64,000 bases of DNA from Candidatus Parcubacteria bacterium (lineage in GTDB: Bacteria > Patescibacteriota > Minisyncoccia > Phycocordibacterales > PALSA-1337). Positions 1 to 31,339 of this stretch are shown here, in pieces. The stretch covers positions 220 to 64,219 of the forward strand of contig CAVYBN010000012.1 in NCBI GenBank assembly GCA_963766795.1, given 5' to 3'. Both the position numbers and the translations under genes were made by a program. Under the pieces are notes generated by a model. That model ran no database searches and was not told the origin of the DNA. It worked only from the letters and a program-made list of their open reading frames with translations. The stretch's first letter is position 1; every line of letters begins with the position of its first letter.

Positions 1-641
1 ATGACTACGATGGCGGTTGTGGTTTTCTTGGTCATGGGTGTGGACTGTTTCCGGGATGCATTAAAGAGTAAAGTTCTAACGGAGTATCGTCGACCTTTGG
101 CTTGACGGCCAGGTCCCACTTTAAAGGTGCCGCCGAGAGCCTTTGTTGTCGCACTGGCTGCGCTTATGAGCTGATTTTCAATATTTTCATCTGTTATGTT
201 AGCCAGCTCAGTATTGACATCGAAGTTGATCTGATCAATCGCCACTTGAGCTTGATGAGCTTCCGTTGCCGCATCTGACGCTTGTAGGCCGGAGGCGAGC
301 AATGAACCTACCACGAACCCACCCCCGCCGCTGCCAACGAGGGCTCCCGCGCCCGTGCCGACAACGAGCGCGGCCGCTGTCGCGCTTTGAATGAGGGCTC
401 GGTCTCCGGGAGCTTCGGTCATGTTGCTTACGACGGCATTGTTTATCTTCGCCATTGCCTCCGCGTAGATCGCCTGATTTTCAACTTGTTTCGCCAAAGT
501 CGGCTGCCCGGAGGCATACAGTTTTTGCGCGGCCGTTTCTGCCGTCTGGGTCATGTTTTTCAGGCATGCGTCCATGGTTTGAGACCCTGATTTTGTCGAG
601 CTTGTATTGCTCCCTGTTCCATTGATGGCGCCTATCCCCAT
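1..641 (-). CDS. hypothetical Gly/Ala-rich membrane-associated protein, partial (3' end runs off the window); last visible gene of the T4SS-like cluster
   Basis: Hand translation of the minus strand. ATG at 641-639 (MGIGAINGTGSNTSS...) lies 3 nt after the TAA of the 645..1688 gene and stays open through position 1. It contains a GAGALVGSGGGGFVVGSLL hydrophobic stretch. It is absent from the ORF track because no stop lies in the window. Confidence 0.45.
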   Translation of the reverse strand, partial: MGIGAINGTGSNTSSTKSGSQTMDACLKNMTQTAETAAQKLYASGQPTLAKQVENQAIYAEAMAKINNAVVSNMTEAPGDRALIQSATAAALVVGTGAGALVGSGGGGFVVGSLLASGLQASDAATEAHQAQVAIDQINFDVNTELANITDENIENQLISAASATTKALGGTFKVGPGRQAKGRRYSVRTLLFNASRKQSTPMTKKTTTAIVV

Positions 642-644
642 ACA

Positions 645-1688
645 TTATTCGACTTGGGCATAAGCCATGCCTTGCGCGGTCTCCGCGGTGATATTCGCTT
701 GCGTCTGATTTATTTCCTGATCCTTTTGCGCTATCTGCGAACACGAACTATTCAATACTTCATCCAGATTGGAATTACCGGTGGCGGCGACGGGCACATT
801 ATCATTGCATAGAGAAGTTATCTCGTCTGGCGTAATGTCGTTGGGGTCCTCGTTTGCGTAACCGCTTTGGACCATGGCGTTAGCTATCTGGTTCTGGAGG
901 TTCGTTATATTTGTTTGGTCGTTACTGATGGTATTTAGCTCGGCGTTCGTATCGTTCCTTATCTGATTGGCTTGATTCATCAATGCATTCGTCTGCTGGG
1001 AGATCTGATCAAGAGATTGCACTTGAGTGGTCAGATCAGTCATAAATGCACTCGTCGTGTTCTTATAATTTATATTCAGCGGCGGCACCAAGGTCGAGGG
1101 GATAGCCACCAGCCGCGGGTCTATGATCTGCAGGAGGAAGTATGAGCACAAGACGATGACGAGCCCGAAGATGGCGTTCTTCAATCTCTTTATACTATCG
1201 CCCTTGCCAGTCCAAGATTCAGTGGTCATGTATTGTAAGCCAGCTAGGGCGATCGCGAAGACCGCGGCGGCCGCGGCCAGGGCGATGACCAGGTTGAAGA
1301 AGTATTGGACATAATTCTGGAAATCCACACTGCTCATAAAGCTTCCTTGGGTGTATGTCTTCCCACCGCTTGTGCACGAAGTCTCTCCTTTGCTGGGAAT
1401 GCAAGGCAAGGGTTCGAGTAAAGTATAAGAAGGCGTGGGATTATTGTTGGCCGGGTTGCCCGTCACCGTTCCGGAGCTCGGATTCGCGGTGGAACCCCCG
1501 GAAATCTGGGCAGCTCCTTGACCGTTGTCCGCTGACACGGCATCAGCGCTACCGCAATCGACTACTTGGTTGTTATTGTCGTAGCAGGTTGTTGCCGCCG
1601 TTATCAAGGCCGGCTTATAAGAAATGATCAATGCGCATAAAAATAGCGGTATGGCTACGATCGCGTATTTTTTGAGTAATGTTCTCAT
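645..1688 (-). CDS. T4SS pilin-like (TrbC/VirB2-type) domain protein with signal peptide, Cys-containing N-region and long N/Q-rich C-terminal tail
   Basis: 347-aa ORF with N-terminal signal/TM MRTLLKKYAIVAIPLFLCALII. The central segment FFNLVIALAAAAAVFAIALAGLQYMTTESWTGKGDSIKRLKNAIFGLVIVLCSYFLLQII matches, from memory, the two-helix T4SS pilin pattern common in CPR genomes. Its start overlaps the upstream stop (TAATG). Confidence 0.6.
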   Translation of the reverse strand: MRTLLKKYAIVAIPLFLCALIISYKPALITAATTCYDNNNQVVDCGSADAVSADNGQGAAQISGGSTANPSSGTVTGNPANNNPTPSYTLLEPLPCIPSKGETSCTSGGKTYTQGSFMSSVDFQNYVQYFFNLVIALAAAAAVFAIALAGLQYMTTESWTGKGDSIKRLKNAIFGLVIVLCSYFLLQIIDPRLVAIPSTLVPPLNINYKNTTSAFMTDLTTQVQSLDQISQQTNALMNQANQIRNDTNAELNTISNDQTNITNLQNQIANAMVQSGYANEDPNDITPDEITSLCNDNVPVAATGNSNLDEVLNSSCSQIAQKDQEINQTQANITAETAQGMAYAQVE

Positions 1689-2765
1689 TAGAATGCGACA
1701 GTCGAAGCTTGGCCGGCAGTAGCGTCGGCGCTGAAGAGCACGGAAAGGGCGGCATTGCCTTGTTGCAATATCTTCTGACTATTCGTAACATCAGTTTCAA
1801 TGTCCGAAGAGCCGGAACTGCCCTCCGGCGCGCGCAGAGTGACGATGTCGTTGCCAGCTAATTCGGGGTGTTCAGTGCCATTCACGAGCCAAGACCATGT
1901 TAGTCCGCCAATGCCGGAAGACGGCAAATTGAAGCCATAAGGAACCGCCAGAACGCCGAGCTCGCGTTGCGCGCCGACATACACCGTGCTTCCCAATGCG
2001 TGATTATACAGAGGCCCATACAAAGGATCGTTGTCATAGAAGGCCATATTGCCGAGCGCGCCAGGAGTCACCGAGGTGATCCCCATTCCCTGCGCCGAGC
2101 CGTCGCGGGCCGAAACGGTCACGGTGATATTGTAAGGCCGCGGCACGATGTTCCCCGGAATGACGATGGACTGTTTGCCGTAGCCCGACTGGTCTTGAAG
2201 CACGGAATCATTCTCTTGCCATTGATAGACGAGAGTTTGCGGGTCATATTCGACGCCGGCCGAGTTGGCGAGATGCGGCACGGCGACGATCTTCACGGAA
2301 TTTTGATAGGCCACGGGGACTTTGCCAGTGAAGAATGGCGGAACATAGCCGTCAGGTTCGAGGATCATGTCTATAGATCCGGAACCGATGGTGATCGAGT
2401 TGTTCATGCTCTGGCCGTCAGGCGTCGTGGCCGTCACATTCACGATCAATCGCTTGCCGAGATCAGGCGCTTGCACGGTCACGGAAGTCGCGCCGATGCC
2501 TTTCGCCAAAGTCTTGCCGCCAGCCGTCCAGGTTATGTTGGCCGAATCGATGTTGATGCTGTAACTTTGCGCGGTGATCGTGACCGTTTGTCCCGGATAC
2601 GGATTATTGTTCGAAGCCGTGAGCTCGAGGCCGCCGATGGCGCCGGAGAGTGATTGGGCAAGGACAGGAGAAGCTAGAAGCTGGAAGCTAGAAGCTAGGA
2701 GGAATACAAAAAGGCAAAAGATTGAAAATTGAAAATTGAAAATTGAAAGATTACGAGAGCTTCAT
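1688..2765 (-). CDS. secreted Ig-like/beta-repeat protein; 5' end frameshifted or lacking a canonical start as assembled
   Basis: The track ORF 1688..2509 begins at an internal TTG. The same frame stays open upstream to 2764 and encodes a signal-peptide-like FCLFVFLLASSFQLLASPVLAQS, but contains no ATG/GTG/TTG. An ATG at 2765-2763 (MKLS) is one base out of frame and stops after 4 codons. A 1-nt indel near 2751-2756 would join them. Confidence 0.55.
2670..2748 (-). repeat. two tandem heptanucleotide arrays (4x GAAGCTR at 2670-2697 and 4x ATTGAAA at 2721-2748, plus-strand reading) inside the putative signal-peptide coding region
   Basis: Counted directly from the sequence. The ATTGAAA array has four perfect units. 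The GAAGCTR array has four units, one of them a variant. Confidence 0.85.
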
Positions 2766-2821
2766 TAGCGCTTATTTTAACAAGAATGGGCGAAAGTTGC
2801 GATATTCGACTGTGTACGGCG

Positions 2822-3316
2822 TCAATTCGCGTTCAAACCGCCTCCCGGCGCGCGCACGCCGTCAACTATAGCTGGTCCAGAGCTGGTATTATAGGAGCCG
2901 TCTTCTATCATGGGCTCGCGTCGGCCGCTCTCATTGAAAGGCGTCTGCGCTTGATTGATCGCGTAGGCGGTATCGGCGGTATTTTGAGCCGCTGGATTTC
3001 CTGTAGCTCTTTTTTCCAAATACACCGTCAGCCAAACCACGGCTACTTCAAGAGTCCAAAGCGGCAAGCCGTCGTCTCCTCCCAGCCCGATCTCTTCCAA
3101 GATGAATCCGCCGCCGTACGCCAATCCGCGGCTGGCGTTCATTTTGACTCCTCTCCACCAGAAATACGCAGGCAGACCGAATCCGACGGCGGCGTCTATG
3201 AATCGATTGATGATTATCCCGACGGCGACTAGGTCAAGAGCGAACTGAACACCGTCGAGCGCAAGAGTTCCAAAGATGAGGATGAACCATTCTCCCGTGC
3301 CGATCTTTGATGACAT
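2822..3316 (-). CDS. hypothetical integral membrane protein (T4SS-like cluster)
   Basis: 164-aa ORF with hydrophobic segments (WFILIFGTLALDGVQFALDLVAVGIIINRFI, LEVAVVWLTVYL). Same strand as the cluster. Confidence 0.5.
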   Translation of the reverse strand: MSSKIGTGEWFILIFGTLALDGVQFALDLVAVGIIINRFIDAAVGFGLPAYFWWRGVKMNASRGLAYGGGFILEEIGLGGDDGLPLWTLEVAVVWLTVYLEKRATGNPAAQNTADTAYAINQAQTPFNESGRREPMIEDGSYNTSSGPAIVDGVRAPGGGLNAN

Positions 3317-3340
3317 GATGAGGAATTATAGCAGGAATTT

Positions 3341-3461
3341 AAGGCAGGAACAGAACATGGGGTGAGGCGGCATTGCGGAGGCGCGAAGGCGCCGAGCACG
3401 AGAAACGCGCCCAGCAGGGCGCGATTTCGGTCGACGAATCCCCATGTTCTGTTCCTGCCCT
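3341..3461. repeat. about 120-bp structured palindromic element: 20-bp perfect closing inverted repeat enclosing two GC-rich hairpins
   Basis: GGCAGGAACAGAACATGGGG (3343-3362) is the exact reverse complement of 3440-3459. Inside are the GGCGC-GAAG-GCGCC and CGCGCCC-AGCA-GGGCGCG hairpins. It lies between the virB4 stop (3479) and the next gene start (3316). Confidence 0.7.
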
Positions 3462-3478
3462 ATCTCATCATTCAATCA

Positions 3479-5293
3479 TCATTTGCCTGCCGCCTCCAAA
3501 TCCTTCTTGGCTTGCGCGATCTGCATGAGCTGGGCCGGATTGGTGGTGATGATCTGGTCCTCGGTATATGAAGCGCGGATCTGGATGGCCACGTGCTTCA
3601 GGCCCACGAAGAAGATGCCTTCGCCGACATCGGATTCGAGGAGCAGGTACTTCTCTTCGTCGGTCAGGTTGAAAGTCTGCTGGATGTGATCTATGACCGT
3701 CGGCGACTGCTTGAGGAGGATCTGCATCGAGGAGTTGGTCAGGATCGGCATGCCATATGGCGATTTCAGGAAATCGTCCACATCCTGCGTGATGGTGGCC
3801 AAGCCGAGGAAGTATTTGCGGCAGCGCTTGGCGATGCCGAACAGGAATGAAGCCGTGTCCTCGCTCTTCATCATCCACCAGGCCTCGTCCACGACCATCA
3901 GGCGCTTTTTCTTGGTCTTCCTTATGGTATTCCAGATGTAGTGCGTGACGATGTACATGGCCACCGGCTTGAGCTCGTCTTCCATGTCGCGGAGCGAGAA
4001 GACCACGAATTTGTTGTTGATGTCCACGTTGGAGGGGCGGTTGATGAAGCCGGCCCAAGTGCCTTTGGTGTATTTGCTCAAGCGCTGGACCAGCGAATCG
4101 GCGCCTTCCATTCCCGCCAGCACCAGCTCGAAATCGGACAAGAGCGGCGGCTCGACCTTGCGGAAATCTGACTCTGGCGTGATGTCCTTCAAGGCGTAAG
4201 TCTCGCTGATGGCGCGGTCGATGATGGCGTCTTCTTCCTGGGAGAGGCCGCCCAACATGATGCGGAATAGTCCGACCAGGTTGATGATGTTCGAGCGCAA
4301 GACGTCGGAGCCGGACTCGTCTTCGGTCGGGACCGGCAGGTCGAAGGGATTGATGTGGTGCTCGGAGTTGAGCGAGATATTGAAATATTTTCCGCCGGTG
4401 GCTTCGGACATGTACTCGTATTCCTTTTCCGGATCGATGACGATGACGTCCGTGTCGAACATCAGCGTGCGCAGGATCTCCAGCTTGGTGCAATAGGATT
4501 TGCCGGCGCCGGCCACCGCGAATGTGACCGAATTGTAATTCTCCAGTGAATAGCGGTCGAACAATACCAGCGAGGAATTGTGGCGGTTGATGCCGTAGAG
4601 GATGCCCTTGTCGGAAGTCAGGTCGAATGATACGAACGGGAAGGCGCTCGAGAGCGGCGATGAATTGAGCTTGGAATTGACTGCCAATTCGTCGTCGGCG
4701 ATAGGGATGGTGCTCTTGAAGCCCTGCTCCTGCTGGAACAGGGCCGGCTTGACATAGACCAGTTTGGACTCAAGGATGGATTTGACTTCGGATTCGAGCT
4801 TGTCGAGCTCGTTGTCGGAATCGGCGAATATGGTGATGTAGACGCCGACGTCGAAGAGGTGCTCCTGCGCCTGCATCAGCTGGTCGCGGAGCTGTTCCAG
4901 GTCCTGATAGGCGGTGTCGAGGCCCGGATCGCGGACCAAGCCCTTCTCTTCCCTGTGGGCGATCTGGCTCTGAACCTCGGCGACCTTCTTCTGGAAATGT
5001 CGCAGGATCTTGGCGGTCTCGACGGGATGGATGAAGATCGAGACGTTGAAGACCTTGTCGAGGTTGATGATCGGCGCGAACCAGCTCTCGTCCAAGAATC
5101 GCGGATATGAGATGACGAAGAGAGTGCGGCCGATCTTCTCGCCGAGGTTGATCTCCTTGGGGCTGACTTTGAGAGCCGACGGCGCGATGACGTCCTTCAA
5201 TTCCAGGACGCCGGCCTGATAGATCTCCTCGGGCAGGATGGAGACGATGGGGCTAGCTTCTTTCTTTCCAAATAATTTTGAGAAGATGGACAT
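3479..5293 (-). CDS. virB4: VirB4/TraE-type type IV secretion ATPase
   Basis: Walker A VAGAGKSY, Walker B-like RLMVVDEAWWMM, and an N-terminal DVIAPSA...GRTLFVISYPRFL pattern typical of Gram-positive VirB4-like ATPases. I prefer the ATG at 5293 (MSIFSK) to the track TTG at 5314. Confidence 0.85.
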   Translation of the reverse strand: MSIFSKLFGKKEASPIVSILPEEIYQAGVLELKDVIAPSALKVSPKEINLGEKIGRTLFVISYPRFLDESWFAPIINLDKVFNVSIFIHPVETAKILRHFQKKVAEVQSQIAHREEKGLVRDPGLDTAYQDLEQLRDQLMQAQEHLFDVGVYITIFADSDNELDKLESEVKSILESKLVYVKPALFQQEQGFKSTIPIADDELAVNSKLNSSPLSSAFPFVSFDLTSDKGILYGINRHNSSLVLFDRYSLENYNSVTFAVAGAGKSYCTKLEILRTLMFDTDVIVIDPEKEYEYMSEATGGKYFNISLNSEHHINPFDLPVPTEDESGSDVLRSNIINLVGLFRIMLGGLSQEEDAIIDRAISETYALKDITPESDFRKVEPPLLSDFELVLAGMEGADSLVQRLSKYTKGTWAGFINRPSNVDINNKFVVFSLRDMEDELKPVAMYIVTHYIWNTIRKTKKKRLMVVDEAWWMMKSEDTASFLFGIAKRCRKYFLGLATITQDVDDFLKSPYGMPILTNSSMQILLKQSPTVIDHIQQTFNLTDEEKYLLLESDVGEGIFFVGLKHVAIQIRASYTEDQIITTNPAQLMQIAQAKKDLEAAGK

Positions 5294-5325
5294 GATAATG
5301 AATTCAAAAGGCAAAATTATCTATC

Positions 5326-5413
5326 TTGTCACCCCCGCGGAAGCGGGGGTCCAGTGTATTACCACTGGCATTGTCGGTGAAACCCTGGATTCCCGCTTTC
5401 GCGGGAATGACAA
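5326..5413 (+). repeat. 88-bp two-hairpin MITE-like element, copy 1 (TTGTCA...TGACAA termini)
   Basis: TTGTCA-CCCCCGC-GGAA-GCGGGGG-TCCAGTGT...CCCTGG-ATTCCCGC-TTTC-GCGGGAAT-GACAA. The two ends are imperfect inverted repeats of each other. It lies in the leader of virB4. Confidence 0.85.
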
Positions 5414-5428
5414 TATTTTGGAATTTGT

Positions 5429-6073
5429 TCATGTTATTTGAATCGGTTTCTCAGTTTCCCCCGGATTAAACAGCTTATAAAACAATTCTACCACCTCCTC
5501 CGTGCCCAGCTCGGCGGTCCTGATGCCGCAGCGCACGAGTCCCTGTTCGACCACGGCCACGCGCTGTTCCAATTGGCTCCGATGCTCCTGGAAGAGCTCG
5601 TCGGGAGTAGCCTTGGCACCGTCAGTCCCCTTCTTCCCGCCGGGCAGAGCAGCGGCCAGGCGGCTCTTCGAGCCGGCAGCGATCGCCGGATCATAGGGTA
5701 TGATCACGAAGAAGCTCTTGGACATGATGTTGGTGGATTCCACGAAAGTCTTGATGAAGTCTATGTATTCACGGACTTGGATCTTCATGAGCTCGATCGT
5801 CTGTTCCTTGTAGCGGTCTTCCAGAAGGGCGATGTAAGGCCGGATGTCGAGCTTCTTGGACTGCATGAATATCTGGATGGAGAAATCTAGCGAGTTCAGG
5901 AAGTTCTGGAATTGCATCAGGATGGCACCCTGCTCGTCTGCCGACTTAAGCGCGAAGTTGAGCGAAGTCGCCAAGACGATGGAGCGCATGCCGCCGCTCT
6001 TCAGTATGACCACGCCGTCGCGGATCTCCTGGATGGGAACGAAGTTCTGGGTTGTTTGCTGTTTAGTAGCCAT
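5429..6073 (-). CDS. hypothetical protein of the T4SS-like cluster; N-terminal region resembles the pre-ATPase domain of Firmicutes VirB4-like proteins, no NTP-binding motif
   Basis: ATG at 6073 (MATKQQTTQNFVPIQEIRDGVVILKSGG...SLNFALKS..EQ). The 40 extra residues in the track ORF (SFPRKRESRV...WIPVFTGMT) are read-through of MITE copy 2. The functional call rests on by-eye pattern only. Confidence 0.55.
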   Translation of the reverse strand: MATKQQTTQNFVPIQEIRDGVVILKSGGMRSIVLATSLNFALKSADEQGAILMQFQNFLNSLDFSIQIFMQSKKLDIRPYIALLEDRYKEQTIELMKIQVREYIDFIKTFVESTNIMSKSFFVIIPYDPAIAAGSKSRLAAALPGGKKGTDGAKATPDELFQEHRSQLEQRVAVVEQGLVRCGIRTAELGTEEVVELFYKLFNPGETEKPIQIT

Positions 6074-6102
6074 TGGATGTAATTCAAAAGGCAAAATTAT
6101 CC

Positions 6103-6190
6103 TTGTCATCCCCGTGAAAACGGGGATCCAGTGTATTACCACTGGCGTTGTCGGTGAAACCCTGGATTCCCGCTTTCGCGGGAATGACAA
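6103..6190 (+). repeat. 88-bp two-hairpin MITE-like element, copy 2
   Basis: Same architecture and length as copy 1. The left hairpin is ATCCCCG-TGAAAA-CGGGGAT, with compensatory changes relative to copy 1. The flanking 20 bp AATTCAAAAGGCAAAATTAT (6081-6100) is also shared with 5301-5320. Confidence 0.85.
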
Positions 6191-6247
6191 CATTTTGACT
6201 TTTAACTTTCAATTTTGACTTTTGCATTTTGACTTTTAACTTTTGAC

Positions 6248-6688
6248 TTATTTTTGGTCCTTATTCGAATAGATACTTTCTTTGATATCGAGGCTCCAGC
6301 TCAAATCTTTCAGCTTGCTGTTCGATATCTTCGGAACCATGATGCCGGCATATCCCTTGGCGTCTTTGACGGCGGCTTCGATCGTGGTAGGACGCGGCTT
6401 CTCCTCTTTCTTCCAGATGAAGAGCTTGCCGCCGGTGTAATATTTGAAGGCGGATTCGAGGATGTCGATGAGCGGCCGGCCGAGAGTTCGTGACGGGTAG
6501 AAAGCTAGAGTGGCGGAAATGGCCATGACAATGATGATGGGCAGGAACGCGAGGGTCAGGCTTTTCAGGAGGACATATAAAAGGAATGACAATCCGGCGC
6601 CGCCGGCCATGTAGATGAATTGCTTCAGGGTCATGGGCCCGAATATCTTGTCCTCGACCTCGATGAACTGGGGGACTTGGAAGCGCAT
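6248..6688 (-). CDS. PrgI/VirB3-like small T4SS membrane protein
   Basis: MRFQVPQFIEVEDKIFGPMTLKQFIYMAGG is followed by two TM helices, which from memory is the PrgI-family signature. It lies upstream of the VirB4-type genes, as in Gram-positive T4SS loci. Confidence 0.65.
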   Translation of the reverse strand: MRFQVPQFIEVEDKIFGPMTLKQFIYMAGGAGLSFLLYVLLKSLTLAFLPIIIVMAISATLAFYPSRTLGRPLIDILESAFKYYTGGKLFIWKKEEKPRPTTIEAAVKDAKGYAGIMVPKISNSKLKDLSWSLDIKESIYSNKDQK

Positions 6689-6704
6689 TGAGATAAGTAT
6701 ATCA

Positions 6705-7623
6705 CTACTGTATTACTTCCCTATACGGATCTCCGGTCGGCAGATTTACCGGCGGCTTTGGCGTTGCGGGTTTTGTCGGCGCTGATTTGGACGTAGTCGG
6801 GATATCCAACGGCGCTTTGACCGTTATCTTCTCGAGCGGAATGGCGGCCGGACCGTTCAAGAGCTGGTCCACCAAAGGCTCGTAATGCTCCGCGTCCGCT
6901 TTGGCCGCGGCTTCCTGCCTATGCGAGGACGGATCCTCGATGCCGTGCAATATGCTCGGCGTGGTCGGCTTCGGTCGCCTCGTCTTCGAGCAGGTTGATC
7001 TTCTTTTTCGGCGCGGCTTCCGGCGCGACCGTCCCCCACTTGCCTATGCCGCTCATGTTTCTAGCCATTGCCGCTCCAGCCGTCTGCGCGTGCGGCTGTT
7101 CCGGCTCGATCTCGAAATTTCCCGCGCGCTCCAAGGACGCATTCACCGACTGTTTGACAGGCGCATCCGCCGGCATATCTCTCAATACTCCGCCAGTCCC
7201 GCCGCCAGCCTTGCCACCACCCGCCCCGCCAAACTTTTGACCGTTCCCAAAATTCCGATTGCTGGCACCGATCTGCGATGGCGGCGCTTCCTCATCGGAT
7301 TTTTCCTCGAGGGCGCGCATGGAAGAGCGGATCTTGTCGAATACTTCCTTGTTGATGTCTTCCGCCACAGCTTTGGCAGTAGCTTCATCCACGCCTGCTT
7401 CCTTAGAGAAATTCTTCACAAATTCTTTTGAAGGCATCAATCCAAGCATGACATAGGCAGTCAAGTCGAACAAGACTCCTTCTTGATCGACTTTCAGTCC
7501 GTGCTTTGCGCTGATAGCCTTGATGATATCAGCTGTTTCAACTGAAGTGAGAGCTTCCTGCATCTCTTCAGGTAGTTGCTTTATTTTCTCCTCTAGGATG
7601 TTGTAGTCGTAATCGATGGTCAT
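6705..7623 (-). CDS. hypothetical protein (helical N-domain, low-complexity middle, C-terminal DPYRE motif); frameshifted as assembled
   Basis: ORFs 6919..7623 and 6705..6950 overlap in different frames. Removing one base near 6925-6945 joins ...EADHAEHI to HGIEDPSSHRQE...GDPYREVIQ. Confidence 0.5.
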
Positions 7624-9569
7624 GTTACGTTTTCTAGGGTGGATAATTGTTCCTCAAATGTCGTGACTGTATTGACCGCAGCTGTTTCTCTTGTGATCAA
7701 ACCCGGAAGCTTGGCGTTAAACTCATCTAGCTTAGCTTGTTGTGCGGCGTTAGGTCCTGCAGCTCCCGTGTTCATGACCCTAGTATTGATTGCTTCAATT
7801 CCGTCGTTGGCTTTCTTGATTTCCTCACGGATCTTCTCGAGGTTTTTGTTCGATGATTCGACCCTCTTCTTTAGATTTTCAGATTGGATCTTTGTCGCTG
7901 CGAGCTTATTCTTTCGTGCGACCTTTGTCCATATCGTATCGGCGCTCCGTGTCCTTATGCTACCCGCATATGTGTCTTTTCGTCCAAGTTTCGTCTCATT
8001 TAGAAGACCTTCAACCTCACCTATCCTTGTGTTTAAAGCCTTTGCCCCGTTTATGTCGCCGCGAGAACGCAGGTACCCTTGTTGTCTGCGCAGATCTCTA
8101 AGTTCAGCTTCATGGAATTGGGCTTGACGCTTGTTGTAACCCAATGACTCCGCAAACTCTGTTTTTGATTTCACCTGTCCTGCCAGCTTGGCGTCATAAC
8201 CAGACGCAAGTCCACGAGTTCCTTTCAACAATGTGCCGCCGATCGCGGTATGCCTTGCGGCAAAATCCTTGAATCCTTCGCTCTGGGCGATCTTACTGGT
8301 AGCGCGTCCGACAGTACCTGTATAAGAAGCTCCGCCGAACCTCTTCCATATTCCCTGCATATTCAATCCCGAAGTGAACTTATTCTTGCTGATCCACCCC
8401 GTCGCCACGCCGCCCATCTCGATGGCAGCCACCAGCGGCAGGTTGAGCAGGAAAATGACGATGAAGGCATTGACGCCCAGAGCCAGATAATCGCTGTACC
8501 ATGTAGCGCTTGAGCTGGTGACCAGATTGCCCAGGTAGCCGGTGTGGAAGAATGAGCTTGTGGTGAGGACATTCAAGGCCAGATACATGAGCAAGAGGTA
8601 GACCGGCATGAAGAGAAGCATGCTCGTGTACATACTCGTCCATTTTTTTGCGTAGGTCTTGATCTCCGAGCTCGGGATGATGGCGGCGACGAACCAGATC
8701 GGCGAGAAGGCCAGGAGGACCAATAGGAGCACGAACCTGAAGATGAAAGCGCCGGCGGCCAGAGTAAAGCTGCAAGCGGCGGTAAATTCGATGATCATGC
8801 CGGTCACGCCCATGAGGATGATCTTGAGCGGAGCGGGGGTGTTGGCATTGCTGGCGGCGGCGGTGTTTCCTGTCGAGCCCGACGGCGACAAGGACGGCTT
8901 GTATATGCTTGTGATGTTCAAGGATTGCATGAATATGTCCGAAAGGCCGCCGTCGCCCATCAATTTGCTCATGGTGCCCTGATCCTGGAAAGATAACGCG
9001 TCGCCGCTCACGCTGTTGGCCGGAGCGATGGCGTTGTAAAGTTGTAGAGAGACGATGTTGGAAGCGTCGATGCCGAGTCCCGCCGCGAAGAAGCTGAAAT
9101 TGACGAGGACGCCGGCCACGACGATGTTCTTGATGAGGGTATTGAACTTCGGGTCTTGGATGCCGATGATCATCTGTATAGCCGCCCAGAGCAGGAAGAA
9201 GATGATGAACATGCTGGAGATGTCCCTGATGGCCGTCCATGTCGTGTAGATCGCCGTAGTGCCGTCCACGAAGGCCTTGATGTTCAGCGTCATGCCCATG
9301 GCGATGTTCAGGAACATGCCGGAGAGCGCTACCAGCCAGCTCATGATCATGAGCCCGATGTTCATGATGTTGGCGATAAGGCTGTTGATGAGGGAGACAA
9401 AATCGGGGAAGCCGAAGAAGCTCGCTATGCCGCTGATCCAATTCCCTCCCGAACCGCCGGCGGTGGCCTGCAATGGGCCATCAGCGTGTGCAACCACGGC
9501 GAAAGTGCCGACGCACAATATCAATGTGATCAGTAGGATCGGAACAAGTTTTTTGTATGAGATCCTCAT
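7620..9569 (-). CDS. polytopic membrane protein, VirB6/TrbL-like candidate, with C-terminal coiled-coil tail
   Basis: 649 aa with a signal-like N-terminus, many hydrophobic helices across roughly aa 40-400, then a charged K/E/R-rich tail. Position and topology fit the T4SS channel subunit. No sequence motif was verified. Confidence 0.5.
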   Translation of the reverse strand: MRISYKKLVPILLITLILCVGTFAVVAHADGPLQATAGGSGGNWISGIASFFGFPDFVSLINSLIANIMNIGLMIMSWLVALSGMFLNIAMGMTLNIKAFVDGTTAIYTTWTAIRDISSMFIIFFLLWAAIQMIIGIQDPKFNTLIKNIVVAGVLVNFSFFAAGLGIDASNIVSLQLYNAIAPANSVSGDALSFQDQGTMSKLMGDGGLSDIFMQSLNITSIYKPSLSPSGSTGNTAAASNANTPAPLKIILMGVTGMIIEFTAACSFTLAAGAFIFRFVLLLVLLAFSPIWFVAAIIPSSEIKTYAKKWTSMYTSMLLFMPVYLLLMYLALNVLTTSSFFHTGYLGNLVTSSSATWYSDYLALGVNAFIVIFLLNLPLVAAIEMGGVATGWISKNKFTSGLNMQGIWKRFGGASYTGTVGRATSKIAQSEGFKDFAARHTAIGGTLLKGTRGLASGYDAKLAGQVKSKTEFAESLGYNKRQAQFHEAELRDLRRQQGYLRSRGDINGAKALNTRIGEVEGLLNETKLGRKDTYAGSIRTRSADTIWTKVARKNKLAATKIQSENLKKRVESSNKNLEKIREEIKKANDGIEAINTRVMNTGAAGPNAAQQAKLDEFNAKLPGLITRETAAVNTVTTFEEQLSTLENVT

Positions 9570-9572
9570 GAT

Positions 9573-11381
9573 TTAATGGGCAGTCGTTCCATAGTTGGTC
9601 GTTCCATTGCAGACGCTTTGATACGGTATCAAAGCCTTAGACAGAGTGTTCACCAAAGTCGTGGCAGTCTGGAAATCGTCGCTGGCCGCTTGCGGGTCGC
9701 TGTCGGCGGATGACGATATAGAATCCAATTCCGTGGAAAATTGGGTATTTAAGTTAACGAGATCCTGTGCCGAAGCAGTCTTATTGACCTGATCCTCGAT
9801 GCTTTGTATCTGTATGAGAGTGCTTGAAGCATCCATGGCGGAAGCTTGGGCGATGGCGACTTGCGGCGTTATGTTCGTGGCTATCGCGCTATCCAGAGCC
9901 GATAATTGGCCTTGCAGATAAGTCGTCTGTCCGGCGTAATTGGTTTGATTGGAGTTATTCTGACCGGAATAGTTATTGGATTGTTGTGAGCTATTGGATT
10001 GTTGCAGATTTGTCGATTGCTGAACATCATTTGCAATGCACGCCCTCACTGCCGCATAGGCGTTCTGCTGTGAAGTCACGAGCGCCAAGGATTGGCTACG
10101 ATACAAGATTGCTTGTTGTACGGAAACTGTATCTTGTACCAATTGGTCAACTGCCTGTTTCTTCAAACTGGTGAAGTTCTGGCTCATTTGCGGATCGTTG
10201 GCCAGCTGATCGATATAAGATTGCGCTCCGCTTGTCCCAGAACCGGGCTGGCTTGACGCCAGAAGGCCGCCTCCGACGATTACCTGTTTTACCAGATAGG
10301 AGAAGAATGCCGATACGACCTCGTTGATGTCGTTGGTCATGTTGAGCTCGTCAGTCGAAGCGCCGAGCTGTTTGCTGAGCGATGACGAGATGACGGAGCC
10401 GGGGGTCTGCATCGTGCAGCTCTGGTAGGTTACATTGCCCTTTGCGTCTACGCTTGCGGTGATGCCGGAACCGGCCCCTGCTGTCATCGCGCCCTCGCTC
10501 ACTTCGGCAGTGACATCCGTGCAGCTGTTCCAAGACAAGAAGCCGCTGCCGAGCTGGATATCGGCCGTGAGCGACGCGTGGCGCATGCCGATCTGCGCGT
10601 TCAAGTCGGCGCTAGACTGCAGATATGCTCCGAAAGGATTGTTCTGCGGCACGGTGGTCATGGTGATGAACGAAGACCAGCCGCCGGCCGAGAAGTTTCC
10701 TTTCATGAAGCTGTTTATATTCTGACCATTAACCGTGACATTGACGCCATTCTGGGCATTTTTGATGATCGTGCCGAGCGTGCAGGTGTATCGCTGGTCT
10801 GATGGTTGGACATGCTCGAGCGCCAATGCTACTTGGATATCGACGCTGAACGGCGAACACAGTTGTGATAACGGGCCGCTTCCCGACAGGAACGCGCCAG
10901 TTATCTGATCGCCGGCGTCAATAAAAAATGCTTGCGGATTCTTCAAGAACGAAGGGTTGCCTTTGAAGCCCGTATTGATCCAATTGACCACGCTGGTGGC
11001 GATGCTGTGGAGGACGATGTGCGCCATCTGCCAAGCGATGCCGCTCCAAGTGCACTGGACGTTCTTGGCAGTAGTGGTGTTCGCGGCAATGGTGGAGGTG
11101 TTCTTCCCGACGGTGGCGTCAGTGACGGGCACGGCCTTGCCTATGCCGATCGATCCAGTGATTGATCCGCTGCCACTGCTACCGAACAGACTTCCTAGGC
11201 CTAACATAGATGTCAGCGCGGATCCGCATCCTGCTAGTGCGCCGCCGACCGCGCCGCCGATGATGCCGCTGGCTTGCGCGTTCGTTTGGATAGGTCCGGA
11301 GAATATGGTTGCGACGAGCATCGCAAAGGCGCTTGCCGTGAGCAATATTTTCTTACCGAGATTTTTTTTGTGAGCGGTCAT
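9573..11381 (-). CDS. large secreted protein of unknown function (T4SS-like cluster)
   Basis: 602-aa ORF with signal peptide MTAHKKNLGKKILLTASAFAMLVATIFSGPIQTNAQA, a Gly-rich stretch and an S/T/Q/N-rich C-terminus. There is a 3-nt gap to the next gene. Confidence 0.5.
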   Translation of the reverse strand: MTAHKKNLGKKILLTASAFAMLVATIFSGPIQTNAQASGIIGGAVGGALAGCGSALTSMLGLGSLFGSSGSGSITGSIGIGKAVPVTDATVGKNTSTIAANTTTAKNVQCTWSGIAWQMAHIVLHSIATSVVNWINTGFKGNPSFLKNPQAFFIDAGDQITGAFLSGSGPLSQLCSPFSVDIQVALALEHVQPSDQRYTCTLGTIIKNAQNGVNVTVNGQNINSFMKGNFSAGGWSSFITMTTVPQNNPFGAYLQSSADLNAQIGMRHASLTADIQLGSGFLSWNSCTDVTAEVSEGAMTAGAGSGITASVDAKGNVTYQSCTMQTPGSVISSSLSKQLGASTDELNMTNDINEVVSAFFSYLVKQVIVGGGLLASSQPGSGTSGAQSYIDQLANDPQMSQNFTSLKKQAVDQLVQDTVSVQQAILYRSQSLALVTSQQNAYAAVRACIANDVQQSTNLQQSNSSQQSNNYSGQNNSNQTNYAGQTTYLQGQLSALDSAIATNITPQVAIAQASAMDASSTLIQIQSIEDQVNKTASAQDLVNLNTQFSTELDSISSSADSDPQAASDDFQTATTLVNTLSKALIPYQSVCNGTTNYGTTAH

Positions 11382-11391
11382 TGTCAGTATG

Positions 11392-12303
11392 TCAATTCAA
11401 CAAGACATTGAAAGCGGTCTCATTGTTGAGGATGAACGATACCCCTTGCTGATCCAGGGCGCTCTGCATGGCCAGAAGAGCGCTTGTCAATTGGTCGATT
11501 CCGCTCACATGCGCGCTGACGCCAGCGATCCCGCGCACGATGTCGGTGTCCGTCGCGCGTAGAGCTTCGGCCGCGAATTCAAGAGAACTGTACGAATTTA
11601 TCAGCCCGATCTCGTATGTGGACATGGATTGCGGCGTCGGTATCGAGAGAAGCCCGGCGATGATGGCTTTGTAATTCGCGATTATGGGATCTATGCGCTT
11701 GAGCACGCTCGGGTCATTGTTGTTCAGGTATTCGCTCATGATCGATGACTCGCTTTCCGTCGCGTTATAGAGCTCGACGGTCTGTTCCACAGCCGAAGCG
11801 AACGCGGAAAGAGACTTACCGTCGGAAGCCGGTACGATCGCGACATCCTTCTCGGTATACGATCTCGGTTGCACGGATCCGACGCTGGAAGTCACGAGGT
11901 CGCTAGCCGTTTGATTGACGACATCGGGATTATTGAGCAAATTAGCTTGTTTCAGCTCCATATAGCGCGTGAATAATTCTTGGCTAAGTTTGTCTGTCAT
12001 GGTCAAAGGCGCGGCTTTTACCGAAGGACTGGCATTTCCGTCAGCGATCTTGTATGTCCCAGGAACAGAAGTGTCAGTGAATTGCTTCCGCCAATCAGTT
12101 CCTGTGCTAGAAGCTGTGTTGGCCGCTGATTGTTCTGTGTCAGTATTTGAAGGTTCCACGACAACGGCATTATTTTCAAGGATAGCTTGTTGTGCCGAGG
12201 CCATGGGGGCATTTTTGTGCGTGTAATATGCGACGCCAAACACTGCTACGGCGCACACCAAGGCAATGACTACCGTTTGCTTGCGCGGGTAGAAAACAGA
12301 CAT
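11392..12303 (-). CDS. membrane-anchored hypothetical protein, first gene of the T4SS-like cluster
   Basis: I prefer the ATG at 12303 (MSVFYPRKQTVVIALVCAVAVFGVAYY, one N-terminal TM). The track start at 12489 would overlap the divergent gene at 12403. Confidence 0.5.
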   Translation of the reverse strand: MSVFYPRKQTVVIALVCAVAVFGVAYYTHKNAPMASAQQAILENNAVVVEPSNTDTEQSAANTASSTGTDWRKQFTDTSVPGTYKIADGNASPSVKAAPLTMTDKLSQELFTRYMELKQANLLNNPDVVNQTASDLVTSSVGSVQPRSYTEKDVAIVPASDGKSLSAFASAVEQTVELYNATESESSIMSEYLNNNDPSVLKRIDPIIANYKAIIAGLLSIPTPQSMSTYEIGLINSYSSLEFAAEALRATDTDIVRGIAGVSAHVSGIDQLTSALLAMQSALDQQGVSFILNNETAFNVLLN

Positions 12304-22756: not shown

Positions 22757-22892
22757 CCCGCCATTCTACGCCGGGGGACATTAAGAAACCCTTAAGAAAA
22801 GTTAAAATTTTCGTGAAGAAAAGTTAAAATTTTCGTGAAGAAAAATACGATGGCGTAGAGCCATCGTTACGAAATAACTAGCTACGCAGTCT

Positions 22893-23255
22893 TCAATGCC
22901 CGTGCTTTATCGAGATCCTGGCAGAAGGATTGGCTTCGAGGCGCTCGAGCTCGATGGGCTGTCCGCAGGCTTCGCAGATGCCGTAGGTGCCCTTATCGAT
23001 GCGCTCCAGGGCGGCGCTGACTTCGAAAAGCTGGTGTTCGAGCTTGTCGGCGATGCCGCTATTGTCATCCAATTCCTCGAGCTTGTCGGCGACCTCGTTC
23101 TCGTCGGCGGCGTCCACTTGCATGCCGCCGCTGGTGGCTTCCCATCCGGAAGAAGTGCCGGAGCTCTTTTCTGCCACCGTGGGCAGGTCCTCCTCTAATC
23201 GGGCTTTCTCCGCCAGAAGTGCTTTCTTGAATCGTTCGATGTCTCGCTTATTCAT
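22893..23255 (-). CDS. DksA/TraR family C4-type zinc-finger protein
   Basis: Coiled-coil N-terminus followed by GTYGICEACGQPIELERLEANP. Confidence 0.75.
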   Translation of the reverse strand: MNKRDIERFKKALLAEKARLEEDLPTVAEKSSGTSSGWEATSGGMQVDAADENEVADKLEELDDNSGIADKLEHQLFEVSAALERIDKGTYGICEACGQPIELERLEANPSARISIKHGH

Positions 23256-23264
23256 GAGGCAATT

Positions 23265-25145: not shown

Positions 25146-25185
25146 CCATATAGCTGGAAAAGCGAAAGCGGAGAGATCTGATTAT

Positions 25186-28232: not shown

Positions 28233-28460
28233 TTTGCGCCCCCAGATTTCAGAATTGAATGGATCTCACTGAGGTCGGACCTCAGCAAAACATTCAAACC
28301 TGCCTATCCGCGGGCGAGATTACTTTATTAAAAAAACTCTAGCAGAATCACTGTAGCAAAAAGCGCCGGGGAATGCCACACACAGGTTCGACCTGTGTTA
28401 ATCGGGTCATTTCCACCAAATGACTCGATTAGCTTAGAGCCAGCCTAATTATCCGTAGGA

Positions 28461-30757: not shown

Positions 30758-30776
30758 GGCTTAAATATGCCACAGA

Positions 30777-31334: not shown

Positions 31335-31339
31335 AAAAT

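What the first reader, a model, noticed from the sequence alone, without database searches (positions are those of the whole stretch)
1..12303. Gram-positive/CPR-style type IV secretion-like cluster with no relaxase or coupling protein in view
Twelve co-directional minus-strand genes with gaps or overlaps of a few nucleotides. They encode a VirB4-type ATPase, a PrgI/VirB3-like protein, a polytopic VirB6-like protein and a pilin-like protein. The rest are at least seven secreted or membrane-anchored proteins with no recognisable motif. A divergent peptidoglycan-binding protein (12403..13578) sits next to the cluster. No VirD4-type ATPase, relaxase, integrase or oriT-like nick region appears within the 12 kb, and the cluster runs off the left edge. 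A minimal apparatus like this in a reduced genome may serve DNA uptake or host/partner contact rather than conjugation. Most of its components would be undescribed.
Basis: partly seen in the sequence, partly recalled or inferred. Interest (0 to 1): 0.55.

Follow-up and report, generated by a model that had tools for sequence, protein, structure and literature searches.

The report
Known Patescibacteria type IV secretion locus
This is the chromosomal, origin-adjacent type IV secretion-like machine already described in ultrasmall Patescibacteria (CPR) bacteria; it is real and not a conjugative element, but what it transports is unknown, and this copy adds only minor detail.

Summary
The cluster is real. 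Window 1-12303 (minus strand) encodes a VirB4 ATPase of the CD1110 type and a separate TrsD-like VirB4 N-domain protein. It also encodes PrgI/VirB3, a polytopic VirB6-like protein and a long protein with a VirB2-type pilin domain. Five or six secreted or membrane proteins remain unassigned, and a peptidoglycan-binding protein is encoded divergently.

The whole block UvrD-KsgA-[cluster]-YidC-RnpA-DnaA-DnaN is collinear in about 80 related Paceibacteria species. What lies beyond position 1 is therefore almost certainly the replication origin region, not a relaxase, coupling protein or integration boundary. No such gene was found among the 58 ORFs searched, which include every ORF of at least 400 aa, in the 64 kb.

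Those papers report the missing relaxase, the dnaA proximity and the DNA-import or host-contact hypothesis.

Support for VirB4, PrgI and the pilin is solid. Support for VirB6 is weak: it is the best PDB fold match, but at E 0.09.

New minor points:
- a TrbJ/DUF4141-like N-terminal motif in the family of the 602-aa protein, which makes it a VirB5 candidate
- MITE-like insertions inside the operon
- three gene disruptions, of which at least the two frameshifts are probably sequencing errors

The parts
1..35 (-). Possible start (MTKKTTTAIVV...) of the next cluster gene. This is the 394-438-aa secreted or anchored family that precedes yidC in relatives. The gene runs off the window.
   Evidence: Translation. 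The family sits at this position in 60 of 84 loci. The assignment is tentative because the reading frame is continuous with the upstream ORF.
3..641 (-). Downstream portion of the pilin-domain gene, separated from it by an in-frame TAA at 645-647. It corresponds to the C-terminal extension of the 554-aa orthologue.
   Evidence: BLASTP E 2.6e-12 to the C-termini of orthologues in L006 and L008. A global alignment to the 554-aa protein of L086 is collinear across the stop.
645..1688 (-). Extended VirB2-like pilin-domain protein. It has a signal peptide, a conserved YTLLEPLP motif, a two-helix hydrophobic hairpin (residues ~130-190, T4SS_pilin) and a Q/N-rich coiled-coil tail.
   Evidence: PF18895 E 2.2e-4. 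NCBIfam Mbov_0395 pilin-like 1.1e-3. 40 of 41 orthologues hit PF18895 and 2 hit TrbC/VirB2. TM segments.
1688..2765 (-). Secreted beta-rich, probably Ig-like repeat protein; the family is about 340 aa. In the window the ATG at 2765-2763 is one base out of frame with the body and is followed by TAA. A (TTTCAAT)x4 repeat lies at 2748-2721 in the signal-peptide region.
   Evidence: 63% identity to the L001 348-aa protein. Present in 79 of 84 loci. Frame analysis. Only weak Ig-fold PDB hits, E 0.01-0.2.
2822..3316 (-). Small protein with two hydrophobic segments (MSSKIGTGEW...; C-terminal DGVRAPGGGL), function unknown.
   Evidence: TM prediction. 37% identity to the L086 166-aa protein. Only a chance-level TraL hit, E 0.06. 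No relation to the pilin family.
3479..5293 (-). VirB4-type ATPase (ATPase part, 604 aa).
   Evidence: More than 8000 homologues were found, and the top 120 are at least 89% identical, all from Patescibacteria where named.
5389..5411 (-). Hairpin arm of a MITE-like palindromic element inserted between the TrsD-like gene and virB4. These two genes overlap in relatives.
   Evidence: Pattern search: 8 matches against 0 expected. The overlap in relatives is shown.
5429..6073 (-). TrsD/TraC-like protein, which is the VirB4 N-terminal domain encoded as a separate gene.
   Evidence: NCBIfam VirB4_plasma 1.3e-11, TrsD 2.9e-6, and conju_CD1110 profile positions 1-110. Orthologues carry PF26593 TraC-like.
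6105..6188 (.). Complete ~85-bp MITE-like palindromic element between prgI and the TrsD-like gene.
   Evidence: Sequence. Both arms were found.
6248..6688 (-). PrgI/VirB3-like membrane protein.
   Evidence: PF12666 E 2.1e-10, above the gathering score. Present in 84 of 84 loci directly upstream of the TrsD-like gene.
6705..7623 (-). Protein with no TM segment or signal peptide, so probably cytoplasmic or peripheral; the family is about 220-290 aa. It has a conserved N-terminal helical domain and a C-terminal EPLVDxLL...DPYRE motif. In the window a frameshift near 6950 splits it into 6919-7623 and 6705-6950.
   Evidence: blastx shows the N-terminal part in frame 1 and the C-terminal part in frame 2, E 1.9e-11. 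The intact 292-aa orthologue is in L086.
7620..9569 (-). Polytopic 'extended VirB6-like' membrane protein with a C-terminal coiled-coil domain.
   Evidence: AF2 model with pLDDT 76. The best PDB fold match is TrwI/VirB6 of R388: 8rtd_L with prob 1.00, E 0.093 and TM 0.50, and 7o3v_G. TrbL Pfam is hit below threshold in 4 of 41 homologues. Profile-profile comparison with TrbL is negative.
9573..11381 (-). Secreted 602-aa protein with a conserved Cys-containing domain (residues ~115-371) and a variable Q/N/S-rich tail. It is a candidate VirB5/TrbJ-like component.
   Evidence: Family alignments. 7 of 42 homologues hit DUF4141, best 2.2e-7 and 30.6 bits against a cutoff of 30. TrbJ N-terminal hits reach 1.4e-5. 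The motif is visible. The AF2 model is weak (pLDDT 68) and has no fold match. hhalign against TrbJ is not significant.
11392..12303 (-). Bitopic protein (N-terminal TM anchor plus ~275-aa external domain), first gene of the operon, function unknown.
   Evidence: TM prediction. Orthologues found in 41 of 84 loci. No Pfam, NCBIfam or PDB match.
12403..13578 (+). Divergently transcribed secreted protein with an N-terminal PG_binding_1 domain.
   Evidence: PF01471 E 1.7e-4, 22.1 bits against a cutoff of 23. Orthologues sit at the same divergent position in L001, L005, L008 and L087.

Best explanation
**What it is.** The region is the vertically inherited, chromosomal 'Patescibacteria-type' type IV secretion system in its Paceibacteria arrangement. 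It lies between ksgA/uvrD and yidC-rnpA-rpmH-dnaA, next to the replication origin.

**Shown here.**
- A cytoplasmic motor: a VirB4 ATPase plus its N-domain encoded separately, as in TrsD.
- A PrgI/VirB3-like membrane partner.
- A VirB2-type pilin domain carried by a long protein (about 554 aa in relatives).
- A set of fast-evolving secreted or anchored proteins.
- No relaxase and no coupling protein.

**Inferred mechanism.**
- VirB4, docked on PrgI and on a polytopic VirB6-like platform, powers extraction and assembly of the pilin-domain protein into a surface filament or conduit through the monoderm wall.
- The secreted proteins (Ig-like repeat protein, 602-aa VirB5/TrbJ-like candidate, bitopic 303-aa protein, PG-binding protein) act as scaffold, tip or wall-anchoring parts.
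- The machine makes contact with the host cell and moves macromolecules across that contact. It does not perform conjugation.

**Direction and substrate are unknown.** I rate import of host-derived material (nucleic acids or other macromolecules) or host attachment at about 0.4-0.5. I rate export of effectors at about 0.3.
For: **Component identities:**

**Synteny with housekeeping flanks.** About 80 species share the order. Where enough flank was recovered, 57 loci carry yidC and 53 carry dnaA.

**Conservation pattern.** VirB4 is the slowest-evolving gene in the neighbourhood. Median identity is 80%, against DnaA 59%, UvrD 56% and DnaN 47%. The surface parts are 27-35% identical. This fits a core motor with diversifying host-facing parts.

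**No conjugation genes.** No T4CP, relaxase or integrase appears in the cluster or among the 58 window ORFs searched.

**Literature.**
- The homologous locus of S. epibionticum (SEML1_0006-0019) is essential for epibiotic growth and lacks coupling protein and relaxase, while comEC is dispensable (PMC10633639; PMC12857230).
- A phylum-wide survey reports the same repertoire and the dnaA/ksgA/rnpA/rpmH neighbourhood in Paceibacteria (PMC12102498).
- Tubular structures between a cultivated member of the phylum and its host are interpreted as possible T4SS pili (bioRxiv 10.64898/2026.06.21.733656).
Against: - The VirB6 assignment is weak. There is no Pfam hit for the window protein, only subthreshold TrbL hits in 4 of 41 homologues, a Foldseek E of 0.09 and a negative hhalign.
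- The pilin-domain protein is far longer than any characterised VirB2. It might be a membrane adaptor rather than a polymerising pilin.
- No VirB1-type hydrolase and no VirB8-like protein was identified.
- Three cluster genes are disrupted in this window. If those disruptions are real, this particular copy could be impaired.
- Nothing here shows the transported substrate or its direction.
- A distant T4CP elsewhere in the genome cannot be excluded. Such genes are reported far from virB4 in many Patescibacteria.
Confidence: 0.85

Rival explanations
1. An integrative conjugative element, or a remnant of one, whose relaxase, coupling protein and integrase lie just beyond position 1.
For: The VirB4 belongs to the CD1110 family, the conjugative family of Firmicutes elements. 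The cluster runs off the window edge.
Against: In the two closest relatives and about 50 other species, the downstream neighbours are a 394-438-aa cluster gene followed by yidC, rnpA, rpmH, dnaA and dnaN. The upstream neighbours are ksgA and uvrD. Gene order is conserved throughout. GC content does not differ from the flanks. VirB4 is more conserved than DnaA. The source contig has only ~3.3 kb beyond the window.
Confidence: 0.03
2. An effector-export T4SS. The machine injects or secretes proteins into or onto the host bacterium without a coupling protein, as in the T4CP-less Ptl or Brucella VirB systems. It would not import anything.
For: T4CP-less protein translocators exist (PMC12102498; PMC12857230). 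Wang et al. suggest protein export as one option. The closest relatives carry a Fic-domain gene inside the cluster, between the 292-aa gene and prgI, and Fic proteins are classic T4SS effectors (from established knowledge).
Against: The Fic gene is absent from the window and from most of the other loci. No effector candidates or secretion signals were identified. Fic could equally be a toxin-antitoxin-type insertion. Direction of transport cannot be tested by sequence.
Confidence: 0.3
3. A decaying, non-functional copy. In this genome the cluster is being pseudogenised, with a premature stop in the pilin-domain gene, a frameshift in the 234/292-aa gene and a lost start in the Ig-like gene.
For: The three disruptions relative to intact orthologues. 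MITE-like insertions separate genes that overlap in relatives.
Against: Essential housekeeping genes in the same window are split in the same way. These are NusA, RNase Y, trigger factor and H+-PPase; HsdR is split too. That points to indel errors in the assembly. VirB4, the TrsD-like protein, PrgI, the 649-aa, 602-aa and 303-aa genes are intact, and VirB4 is 90-97% identical to relatives. An ATG follows the TAA by one codon.
Confidence: 0.1
4. A competence or type IV pilus-type DNA-uptake pseudopilus rather than a T4SS.
For: ComM is encoded 9 kb away at 21224-22756. DNA uptake is one proposed role.
Against: No PilB/PilT/PilC, prepilin peptidase, ComEC or ComEA families occur in the cluster. 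The ATPase, PrgI and pilin domain are all T4SS families. In S. epibionticum comEC is dispensable while the T4SS is essential.
Confidence: 0.02

Closest known systems
Patescibacteria-clade T4SS (S. epibionticum SEML1_0006-0019, Wang et al. 2023; phylum-wide survey by Quinonero-Coronel et al. 2025)
   Same: It has VirB4, a TrsD-like protein, PrgI/VirB3, a VirB6-like protein and a VirB2-type pilin domain. It has no relaxase or coupling protein nearby. It is chromosomal and sits next to dnaA/dnaN/rnpA/rpmH/ksgA, as reported for Paceibacteria (shown here).
   Different: This locus has a single long pilin-domain protein (554 aa in the nearest relative) rather than the array of small divergent pilins described for Saccharimonadia. 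No peptidase or lysozyme genes follow virB4. The accessory set is specific to Paceibacteria: 303-aa, 602-aa, 234/292-aa, 164-aa, Ig-like ~340-aa and ~400-aa proteins.
MPF_FATA conjugative T4SSs of monoderms (CTn2/CD1110, pGO1 TrsC-TrsE, pCF10 PrgH-PrgL)
   Same: The VirB4 passes the NCBIfam CD1110-family cutoff. The VirB4 N-domain is a separate TrsD-like protein, as in pGO1. A PrgI-family protein is present.
   Different: It has no T4CP (PcfC/TrsK), no relaxase, no VirB1-type SLT/CHAP hydrolase, no recognisable VirB8-like protein and no PrgB-type adhesin. It carries a VirB2-type pilin domain, which Gram-positive systems lack. It is a core chromosomal locus, not a plasmid or ICE.
Mycoplasma ICE T4SS (Mbov_0395 pilin-like, Mbov_0397 VirB4)
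   Same: Second-best NCBIfam matches for VirB4 (258 bits), its N-domain (1.3e-11) and the pilin-like domain (1.1e-3).
   Different: All scores are far below the curated cutoffs (590 and 40 bits). There is no ICE context.
Archaeal Ced/Ted DNA-import systems (CedB VirB4-like ATPase with CedA pili)
   Same: It is a conceptual analogue: a VirB4-family ATPase plus a pilus, no relaxase, used for import (discussed in PMC12102498).
   Different: Only a 29-bit hit to CedB against a cutoff of 700. It is not a member.
P-type Trb system (TrbJ/VirB5 - TrbL/VirB6 gene pair) and Bacteroidetes CTn TraI(DUF4141)-TraJ
   Same: A secreted protein is encoded immediately upstream of the VirB6-like gene. Homologues of the 602-aa protein carry the post-signal-peptide motif V-x-D-P-x-N-L-x-Q-N, which matches DUF4141 (2.2e-7) and the TrbJ N-terminus (1.4e-5).
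   Different: The similarity covers only about 35-40 residues. The window's own copy is degenerate (AVPVTDATVGKN) and gives no HMM hit. Profile-profile comparison and fold search are negative.

Membership tests
Patescibacteria-clade T4SS | VirB4 ATPase related to the MPF_FATA class | tested here: met
   NCBIfam conju_CD1110 scores 372 bits against a cutoff of 325. Pfam P-loop_TraG 7e-26. Among the top 120 of more than 8000 homologues, all with source names are from Patescibacteria.
Patescibacteria-clade T4SS | TrsD-like protein (VirB4 N-domain) encoded next to virB4 | tested here: met
   Window 5429-6073 hits VirB4_plasma at 1.3e-11, TrsD at 2.9e-6 (below the curated cutoff) and CD1110 profile positions 1-110. 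Orthologues carry PF26593.
Patescibacteria-clade T4SS | PrgI/VirB3-like membrane protein near virB4 | tested here: met
   PF12666 scores 41.5 bits against a cutoff of 27.
Patescibacteria-clade T4SS | VirB2-like pilin (PF18895/PF04956) near virB4 | tested here: met
   The window protein is below threshold at 21.6 bits against 26.6. However, 40 of 41 positional orthologues hit PF18895 and 2 hit TrbC. The domain sits inside an unusually long protein.
Patescibacteria-clade T4SS | VirB6-like polytopic membrane protein | tested here: inconclusive
   The topology fits. The best PDB fold match is TrwI/VirB6, with prob 1.0, E 0.093 and TM 0.50. TrbL Pfam is hit only below threshold in 4 of 41 homologues. 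The PDB profile search and hhalign against TrbL are negative.
Patescibacteria-clade T4SS | No relaxase or coupling protein associated with the cluster | tested here: met
   No such Pfam or NCBIfam family was hit among the 58 window ORFs searched, which include every ORF of at least 400 aa. In relatives' loci the space is fully accounted for by cluster and housekeeping genes. The rest of the genome was not examined.
Patescibacteria-clade T4SS | Chromosomal position next to dnaA/dnaN/rnpA/rpmH/ksgA (Paceibacteria arrangement) | tested here: met
   ksgA and uvrD are seen directly in the window. The yidC-rnpA-rpmH-dnaA-dnaN side is inferred from conserved synteny in relatives. It cannot be read in the window itself.
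Patescibacteria-clade T4SS | Required for host-dependent growth | not testable with these tools
   Shown only for S. epibionticum by Tn-seq (PMC10633639).
Conjugative T4SS / ICE | Relaxase (MOB family) and oriT | tested here: not met
   No relaxase family hit anywhere in the window. oriT itself cannot be tested by sequence alone.
Conjugative T4SS / ICE | VirD4/TcpA-type coupling protein | tested here: not met
   No hit in the window. The only other large unassigned ORF (23265-25145, 626 aa) has no P-loop or T4CP family hit.
Conjugative T4SS / ICE | Integrase and insertion boundaries; variable presence among relatives | tested here: not met
   The flanks are housekeeping genes in conserved order across about 80 species. 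The nearest recombinase is 26 kb away.
VirB5/TrbJ family (for the 602-aa protein) | Sequence or fold homology over the helical VirB5/TrbJ body | tested here: inconclusive
   Only the N-terminal motif matches in some homologues: DUF4141 at 2.2e-7 and TrbJ at 1.4e-5. The window protein gives no hit. hhalign probability is 16% or less. The AF2 model has pLDDT 68 and no fold match.
VirB8-like / VirB1-like components of monoderm T4SSs | NTF2-like VirB8 fold; SLT/CHAP hydrolase domain | tested here: inconclusive
   No sequence-level hit for any cluster protein. Only a PG_binding_1 domain was found, without a hydrolase domain.

The most novel reading that the evidence does not exclude
The Paceibacteria version of this machine may be a complete pilus-building module in a monoderm. 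It would comprise VirB2-domain, VirB3, split VirB4 and VirB6-like parts, plus a previously unrecognised VirB5/TrbJ-like protein (the 602-aa family). The 602-aa gene sits directly upstream of the VirB6-like gene, as in virB5-virB6 and trbJ-trbL. Its filament would serve as a conduit for taking up host nucleic acids or other macromolecules rather than for conjugation.
Probability: 0.25. Interest if true: 0.6.

Novelty: already known. Interest (0 to 1): 0.3.

Why it matters
Patescibacteria are a large fraction of bacterial diversity. They live attached to other microbes and cannot make their own nucleotides, amino acids or lipids.

This T4SS is one of the few conserved envelope machines that could explain how they obtain what they need. 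In the one genetically tractable species it is essential. Its substrate and direction of transport are still an open question.

This window does not open that question for the first time. It confirms, for one more Paceibacteria genome, the published architecture and origin-proximal position. It adds three small leads:
- The ATPase evolves more slowly than DnaA, while the surface parts diverge fast.
- The 602-aa family carries a TrbJ/DUF4141-like motif.
- Close relatives have a Fic gene inside the cluster.

Tried and rejected
- **Exact-sequence look-ups to extend the contig leftward.** Look-ups of the window's 347-aa protein and of P0001 found no record. I used close relatives instead.
- **Profile searches of accessory families against PDB sequences.** Five families were searched (VirB6-like, pilin, 303-aa, 602-aa, Ig-like). 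They returned only coiled-coil or Ig noise.
- **Model of the 602-aa conserved domain.** AF2 gave pLDDT 68 and no fold match.
- **hhalign against reference alignments.** I compared my family alignments with TrbL, TrbJ and TrbC references built from R751 and six other plasmids. No result was significant. I therefore do not claim homology of the 649-aa protein to TrbL, or of the 602-aa protein to TrbJ, on sequence grounds.
- **The 164-aa protein as a second pilin or VirB3.** Rejected.
- **Promoter and terminator scan.** Counts were at or below chance, so no operon boundaries are claimed from it.
- **tRNA and Rfam scans.** Nothing was found in or near the cluster.
- **Strict regex for the TrbJ-like motif.** It found no match among the 41 nearest orthologues. 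Only degenerate versions are visible by eye, so the motif claim rests on more distant family members.

Full report
**Observation.** Window 1-12303 carries a run of co-directional minus-strand ORFs.

Profile searches identify four components.
- **VirB4 ATPase, 3479-5293.** It hits Pfam P-loop_TraG at 7e-26, with AAA_10 and DUF87 hits as well. NCBIfam 'VirB4-like conjugal transfer ATPase, CD1110 family' scores 372 bits against a curated cutoff of 325.
- **VirB4 N-terminal domain as a separate protein, 5429-6073.** It hits VirB4_plasma at 1.3e-11 and TrsD/TraD at 2.9e-6. It covers CD1110 profile positions 1-110, while the ATPase ORF covers positions 178-733.
- **PrgI-family protein, 6248-6688.** It scores 41.5 bits against a cutoff of 27.
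- **T4SS_pilin domain, 645-1688.** The hit is below threshold at E 2.2e-4 and lies over a two-helix hydrophobic hairpin at residues 130-188.

The divergent gene at 12403-13578 has a borderline PG_binding_1 domain.

The remaining cluster proteins have no Pfam or NCBIfam match. Those at 11392-12303, 9573-11381 and 1688-2765 carry an N-terminal anchor or signal peptide, and 2822-3316 has two TM segments. The protein at 6919-7623 has neither.

**Organism and context.**
- The VirB4 has more than 8000 database homologues. The best 120 are 89-100% identical, and every source name among them is a Patescibacteria, Paceibacterota or Parcubacteria MAG.
- The right flank of the cluster is housekeeping: KsgA, UvrD/PcrA, an M23/LysM peptidase, ComM and PNPase. 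Further along lie a type I R-M island, a XerC/D-like recombinase, the CCA-adding enzyme, four tRNAs, ClpP, trigger factor, H+-PPase and NusA.
- No VirD4-type, relaxase or conjugative-integrase family was hit anywhere in the 64 kb.

**What lies beyond position 1.**
- The exact source contig could not be retrieved. It is only 67,334 nt long, so at most 3.3 kb is missing.
- A relative with 90% VirB4 identity lies on 400-657-kb contigs. Its order is UvrD-KsgA-<PG-binding-280-518-645-223-PrgI-TraC-like-VirB4-215-348-355-438-<YidC-<RnpA-<L34-DnaA-DnaN.
- The two closest relatives (97% identity) show the same order.
- I fetched 80 loci from distinct species genomes with 77-93% VirB4 identity and mapped every window protein onto them. 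The order is collinear in all loci that have enough flank. PrgI, the TrsD-like protein and VirB4 are present in 84 of 84 loci. The Ig-like protein is in 79, the VirB6-like in 65, YidC in 57 and DnaA in 53.
- The cluster is therefore a core chromosomal locus next to the replication origin, not an ICE.

*Pilin.* 40 of 41 positional orthologues hit PF18895 (best 1e-8) and two hit TrbC/VirB2. The domain call therefore holds. The protein is unusual, though. The nearest orthologue is 554 aa, with a long coiled-coil extension after the pilin hairpin.

*VirB6.*
- The family has no Pfam hit above threshold. TrbL is hit at E of about 1e-3 in 4 of 41 members, over nearly the whole TrbL profile in P0157.
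- The profile finds nothing in PDB sequences.
- hhalign against a seven-member TrbL alignment is negative.
- An AlphaFold2 model has mean pLDDT 76.
- Its best match among 350,542 PDB chains is TrwI/VirB6 in the R388 T4SS: 8rtd_L with prob 1.00, E 0.093 and TM 0.50 normalised to the target. 7o3v_G also matches. Every other match is generic helical-membrane-protein noise.
- With the topology and gene position, 'VirB6-like' is plausible but only weakly supported.

**The accessory proteins.** Profile searches of the 303-aa, 602-aa and Ig-like families against PDB sequences gave nothing convincing. The Ig-like family gave only weak Ig-fold hits.

The 602-aa family produced one lead.
- 7 of 42 homologues hit Pfam DUF4141. 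The best is 2.2e-7 at 30.6 bits against a cutoff of 30.
- The same proteins hit the N-terminus of TrbJ, the P-type VirB5, at 1.4e-5.
- The matched stretch is the motif right after the signal peptide: AQLVVVDPTNLVQN in P0273 and AQWAVIDPVNLVQN in P0253. R751 TrbJ has AGIPVIDGTNLSQN at the same place.
- DUF4141 genes lie beside traJ and traG in Bacteroides conjugative transposons (PMC10434189).
- The 602-aa gene lies immediately upstream of the VirB6-like gene, as virB5 does with virB6 and trbJ with trbL.

The evidence against this lead is substantial. The similarity covers only about 35-40 residues. The window's own copy is degenerate and gives no HMM hit. Profile-profile comparisons are not significant. 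The domain model is poor, with pLDDT 68, and has no fold match. I record it as a candidate only.

**Evolutionary pattern.** I used one relative as reference across 32 loci that contain all markers.

| Gene | Median identity |
|---|---|
| VirB4 | 80% |
| TrsD-like | 64% |
| DnaA | 59% |
| PrgI | 56% |
| UvrD | 56% |
| KsgA | 49% |
| DnaN | 47% |
| YidC | 43% |
| Membrane and secreted components | 27-35% |

A motor more conserved than the replication initiator, combined with fast-diverging exposed parts, fits a vertically inherited machine whose surface faces a changing partner.

**State of this copy.** Three cluster genes differ from intact orthologues.
- An in-frame TAA at 645-647 splits the pilin-domain gene. 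Conserved residues flank it on both sides, and an ATG follows one codon later.
- A frameshift near 6950 separates the conserved C-terminus (ORF 6705-6950) from the body of the 234/292-aa gene.
- The Ig-like gene has no in-frame start. The ATG at 2765 is one base out of frame, and a (TTTCAAT)x4 repeat follows it.

NusA, RNase Y, trigger factor, H+-PPase and HsdR are split in the same window. Assembly indel errors are therefore the likeliest cause of the frameshifts. The TAA is a substitution and is less easily explained that way.

Two ~85-bp palindromic MITE-like elements have inserted between prgI, the TrsD-like gene and virB4, which abut or overlap in relatives. Further copies lie in frame inside ksgA and uvrD.

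**Comparison with what is known.**
- Wang et al. 2023 (PMC10633639) described an essential T4SS in Southlakia epibionticum (SEML1_0006-0019). It has Gram-positive-like composition, pilins, and no recognisable coupling protein or relaxase.
- Quinonero-Coronel et al. 2025 (PMC12102498) surveyed the phylum. They found a monophyletic VirB4 clade related to MPF_FATA and widespread TrsD, PrgI/VirB3, VirB6 and VirB2-like proteins. Relaxases were almost absent. In Paceibacteria the genes lie near dnaA, dnaN, rnpA, ksgA and rpmH. They proposed import of DNA or other macromolecules.
- A 2025 review repeats this (PMC12857230).
- A 2026 preprint reports tubular structures at a host contact that may be T4SS pili.

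The present locus is a typical member of this described kind. The survey paper does not report a VirB5-like component in the Patescibacteria clade, so the TrbJ/DUF4141 motif is a small possible addition.

**Verdict.** The system is already known, so interest is modest. The mechanism beyond component identity remains inference: whether a filament forms, in which direction transport runs and what the substrate is.

Noticed in passing
window 5389-5411, 6105-6188, 14658-14744, 17107-17129, 37642-37664, 39733-39755: A family of ~85-bp palindromic MITE-like elements with terminal hairpins GTCATTCCCGCGAAAGCGGGAAT and GTCATCCCCGTGAAAACGGGGAT. The pattern search found 8 arms against 0 expected by chance. 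Two copies sit between T4SS genes that overlap in relatives. Others lie in frame inside ksgA and uvrD, adding peptide segments such as VIPAQAGIQ and SRFHGNDK.
   Followed up: partly
window 62490-63838 (nusA), 48076-49606 (RNase Y), 53689-54775 (trigger factor), 57023-59023 (H+-PPase, three pieces), 28461-30757 (hsdR), 15116-16208 (AAA_14/DUF4143 ATPase): Many genes, including essential housekeeping genes, are split into overlapping ORFs by frameshifts. This suggests indel errors in the assembly. It is the main reason not to read the frameshifts in the T4SS cluster as real pseudogenisation.
   Followed up: partly
window 2721-2765: A heptanucleotide tandem repeat (TTTCAAT)x4 lies in the signal-peptide coding region of the Ig-like cluster gene. 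It follows an ATG-AAG-CTC-TCG-TAA mini-ORF that is one base out of frame with the gene body. This could be an error, or a slipped-strand (phase-variable) start region.
   Followed up: partly
L086:2360-3292 and L087:7945-8877 (closest relatives); absent from window 6689-6918: The two closest relatives (97% VirB4 identity) carry a 310-aa Fic-domain gene inside the cluster, between the 292-aa gene and prgI. The window and most other loci lack it. It may be an effector or a toxin-type accessory insertion.
   Followed up: no
window ~28400-37500: A low-GC island (GC 0.35-0.43 against ~0.52 elsewhere) holds a type I restriction-modification system (split hsdR, two hsdS, hsdM), a Swt1-like HEPN protein and a NYN-domain protein. 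It looks like a horizontally acquired defence island. A XerC/D-like recombinase lies at 38596-39663, followed by a cluster of four tRNAs at 43247-44349.
   Followed up: no
window 45806-48095: Two AbiEii nucleotidyltransferase toxin genes (45806-46477, 47292-48095), one with an AbiEi-like antitoxin (46723-47346).
   Followed up: no
window 21224-25860: ComM (Mg-chelatase-like competence helicase, 21224-22756) and a DksA/TraR zinc-finger protein (22893-23255) lie next to two sizeable ORFs with no family match at all (23265-25145, 626 aa; 25186-25860, 224 aa).
   Followed up: no
L001 and 32 related loci: VirB4 is the most conserved protein in the origin-proximal 22 kb. Its median identity is 80%, against 59% for DnaA and 47% for DnaN. 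The secreted cluster proteins are only 27-35% identical.
   Followed up: yes
orthologues of window 645-1688 in the fetched loci (alignment A2): A few orthologues of the pilin-domain protein carry extra cell-wall hydrolase domains: 3D domain 3e-6, CHAP 2.4e-3 and Peptidase_M15_4 2.6e-3, one member each. This hints that a VirB1-like wall-cutting function may sometimes be fused to the pilin-domain protein.
   Followed up: no
window 3406-3423 (minus strand): A seven-pair all-GC hairpin followed by a T-rich tail lies between the virB4 stop and the next gene. The overall count of terminator-like sites in the region is not above chance.
   Followed up: no
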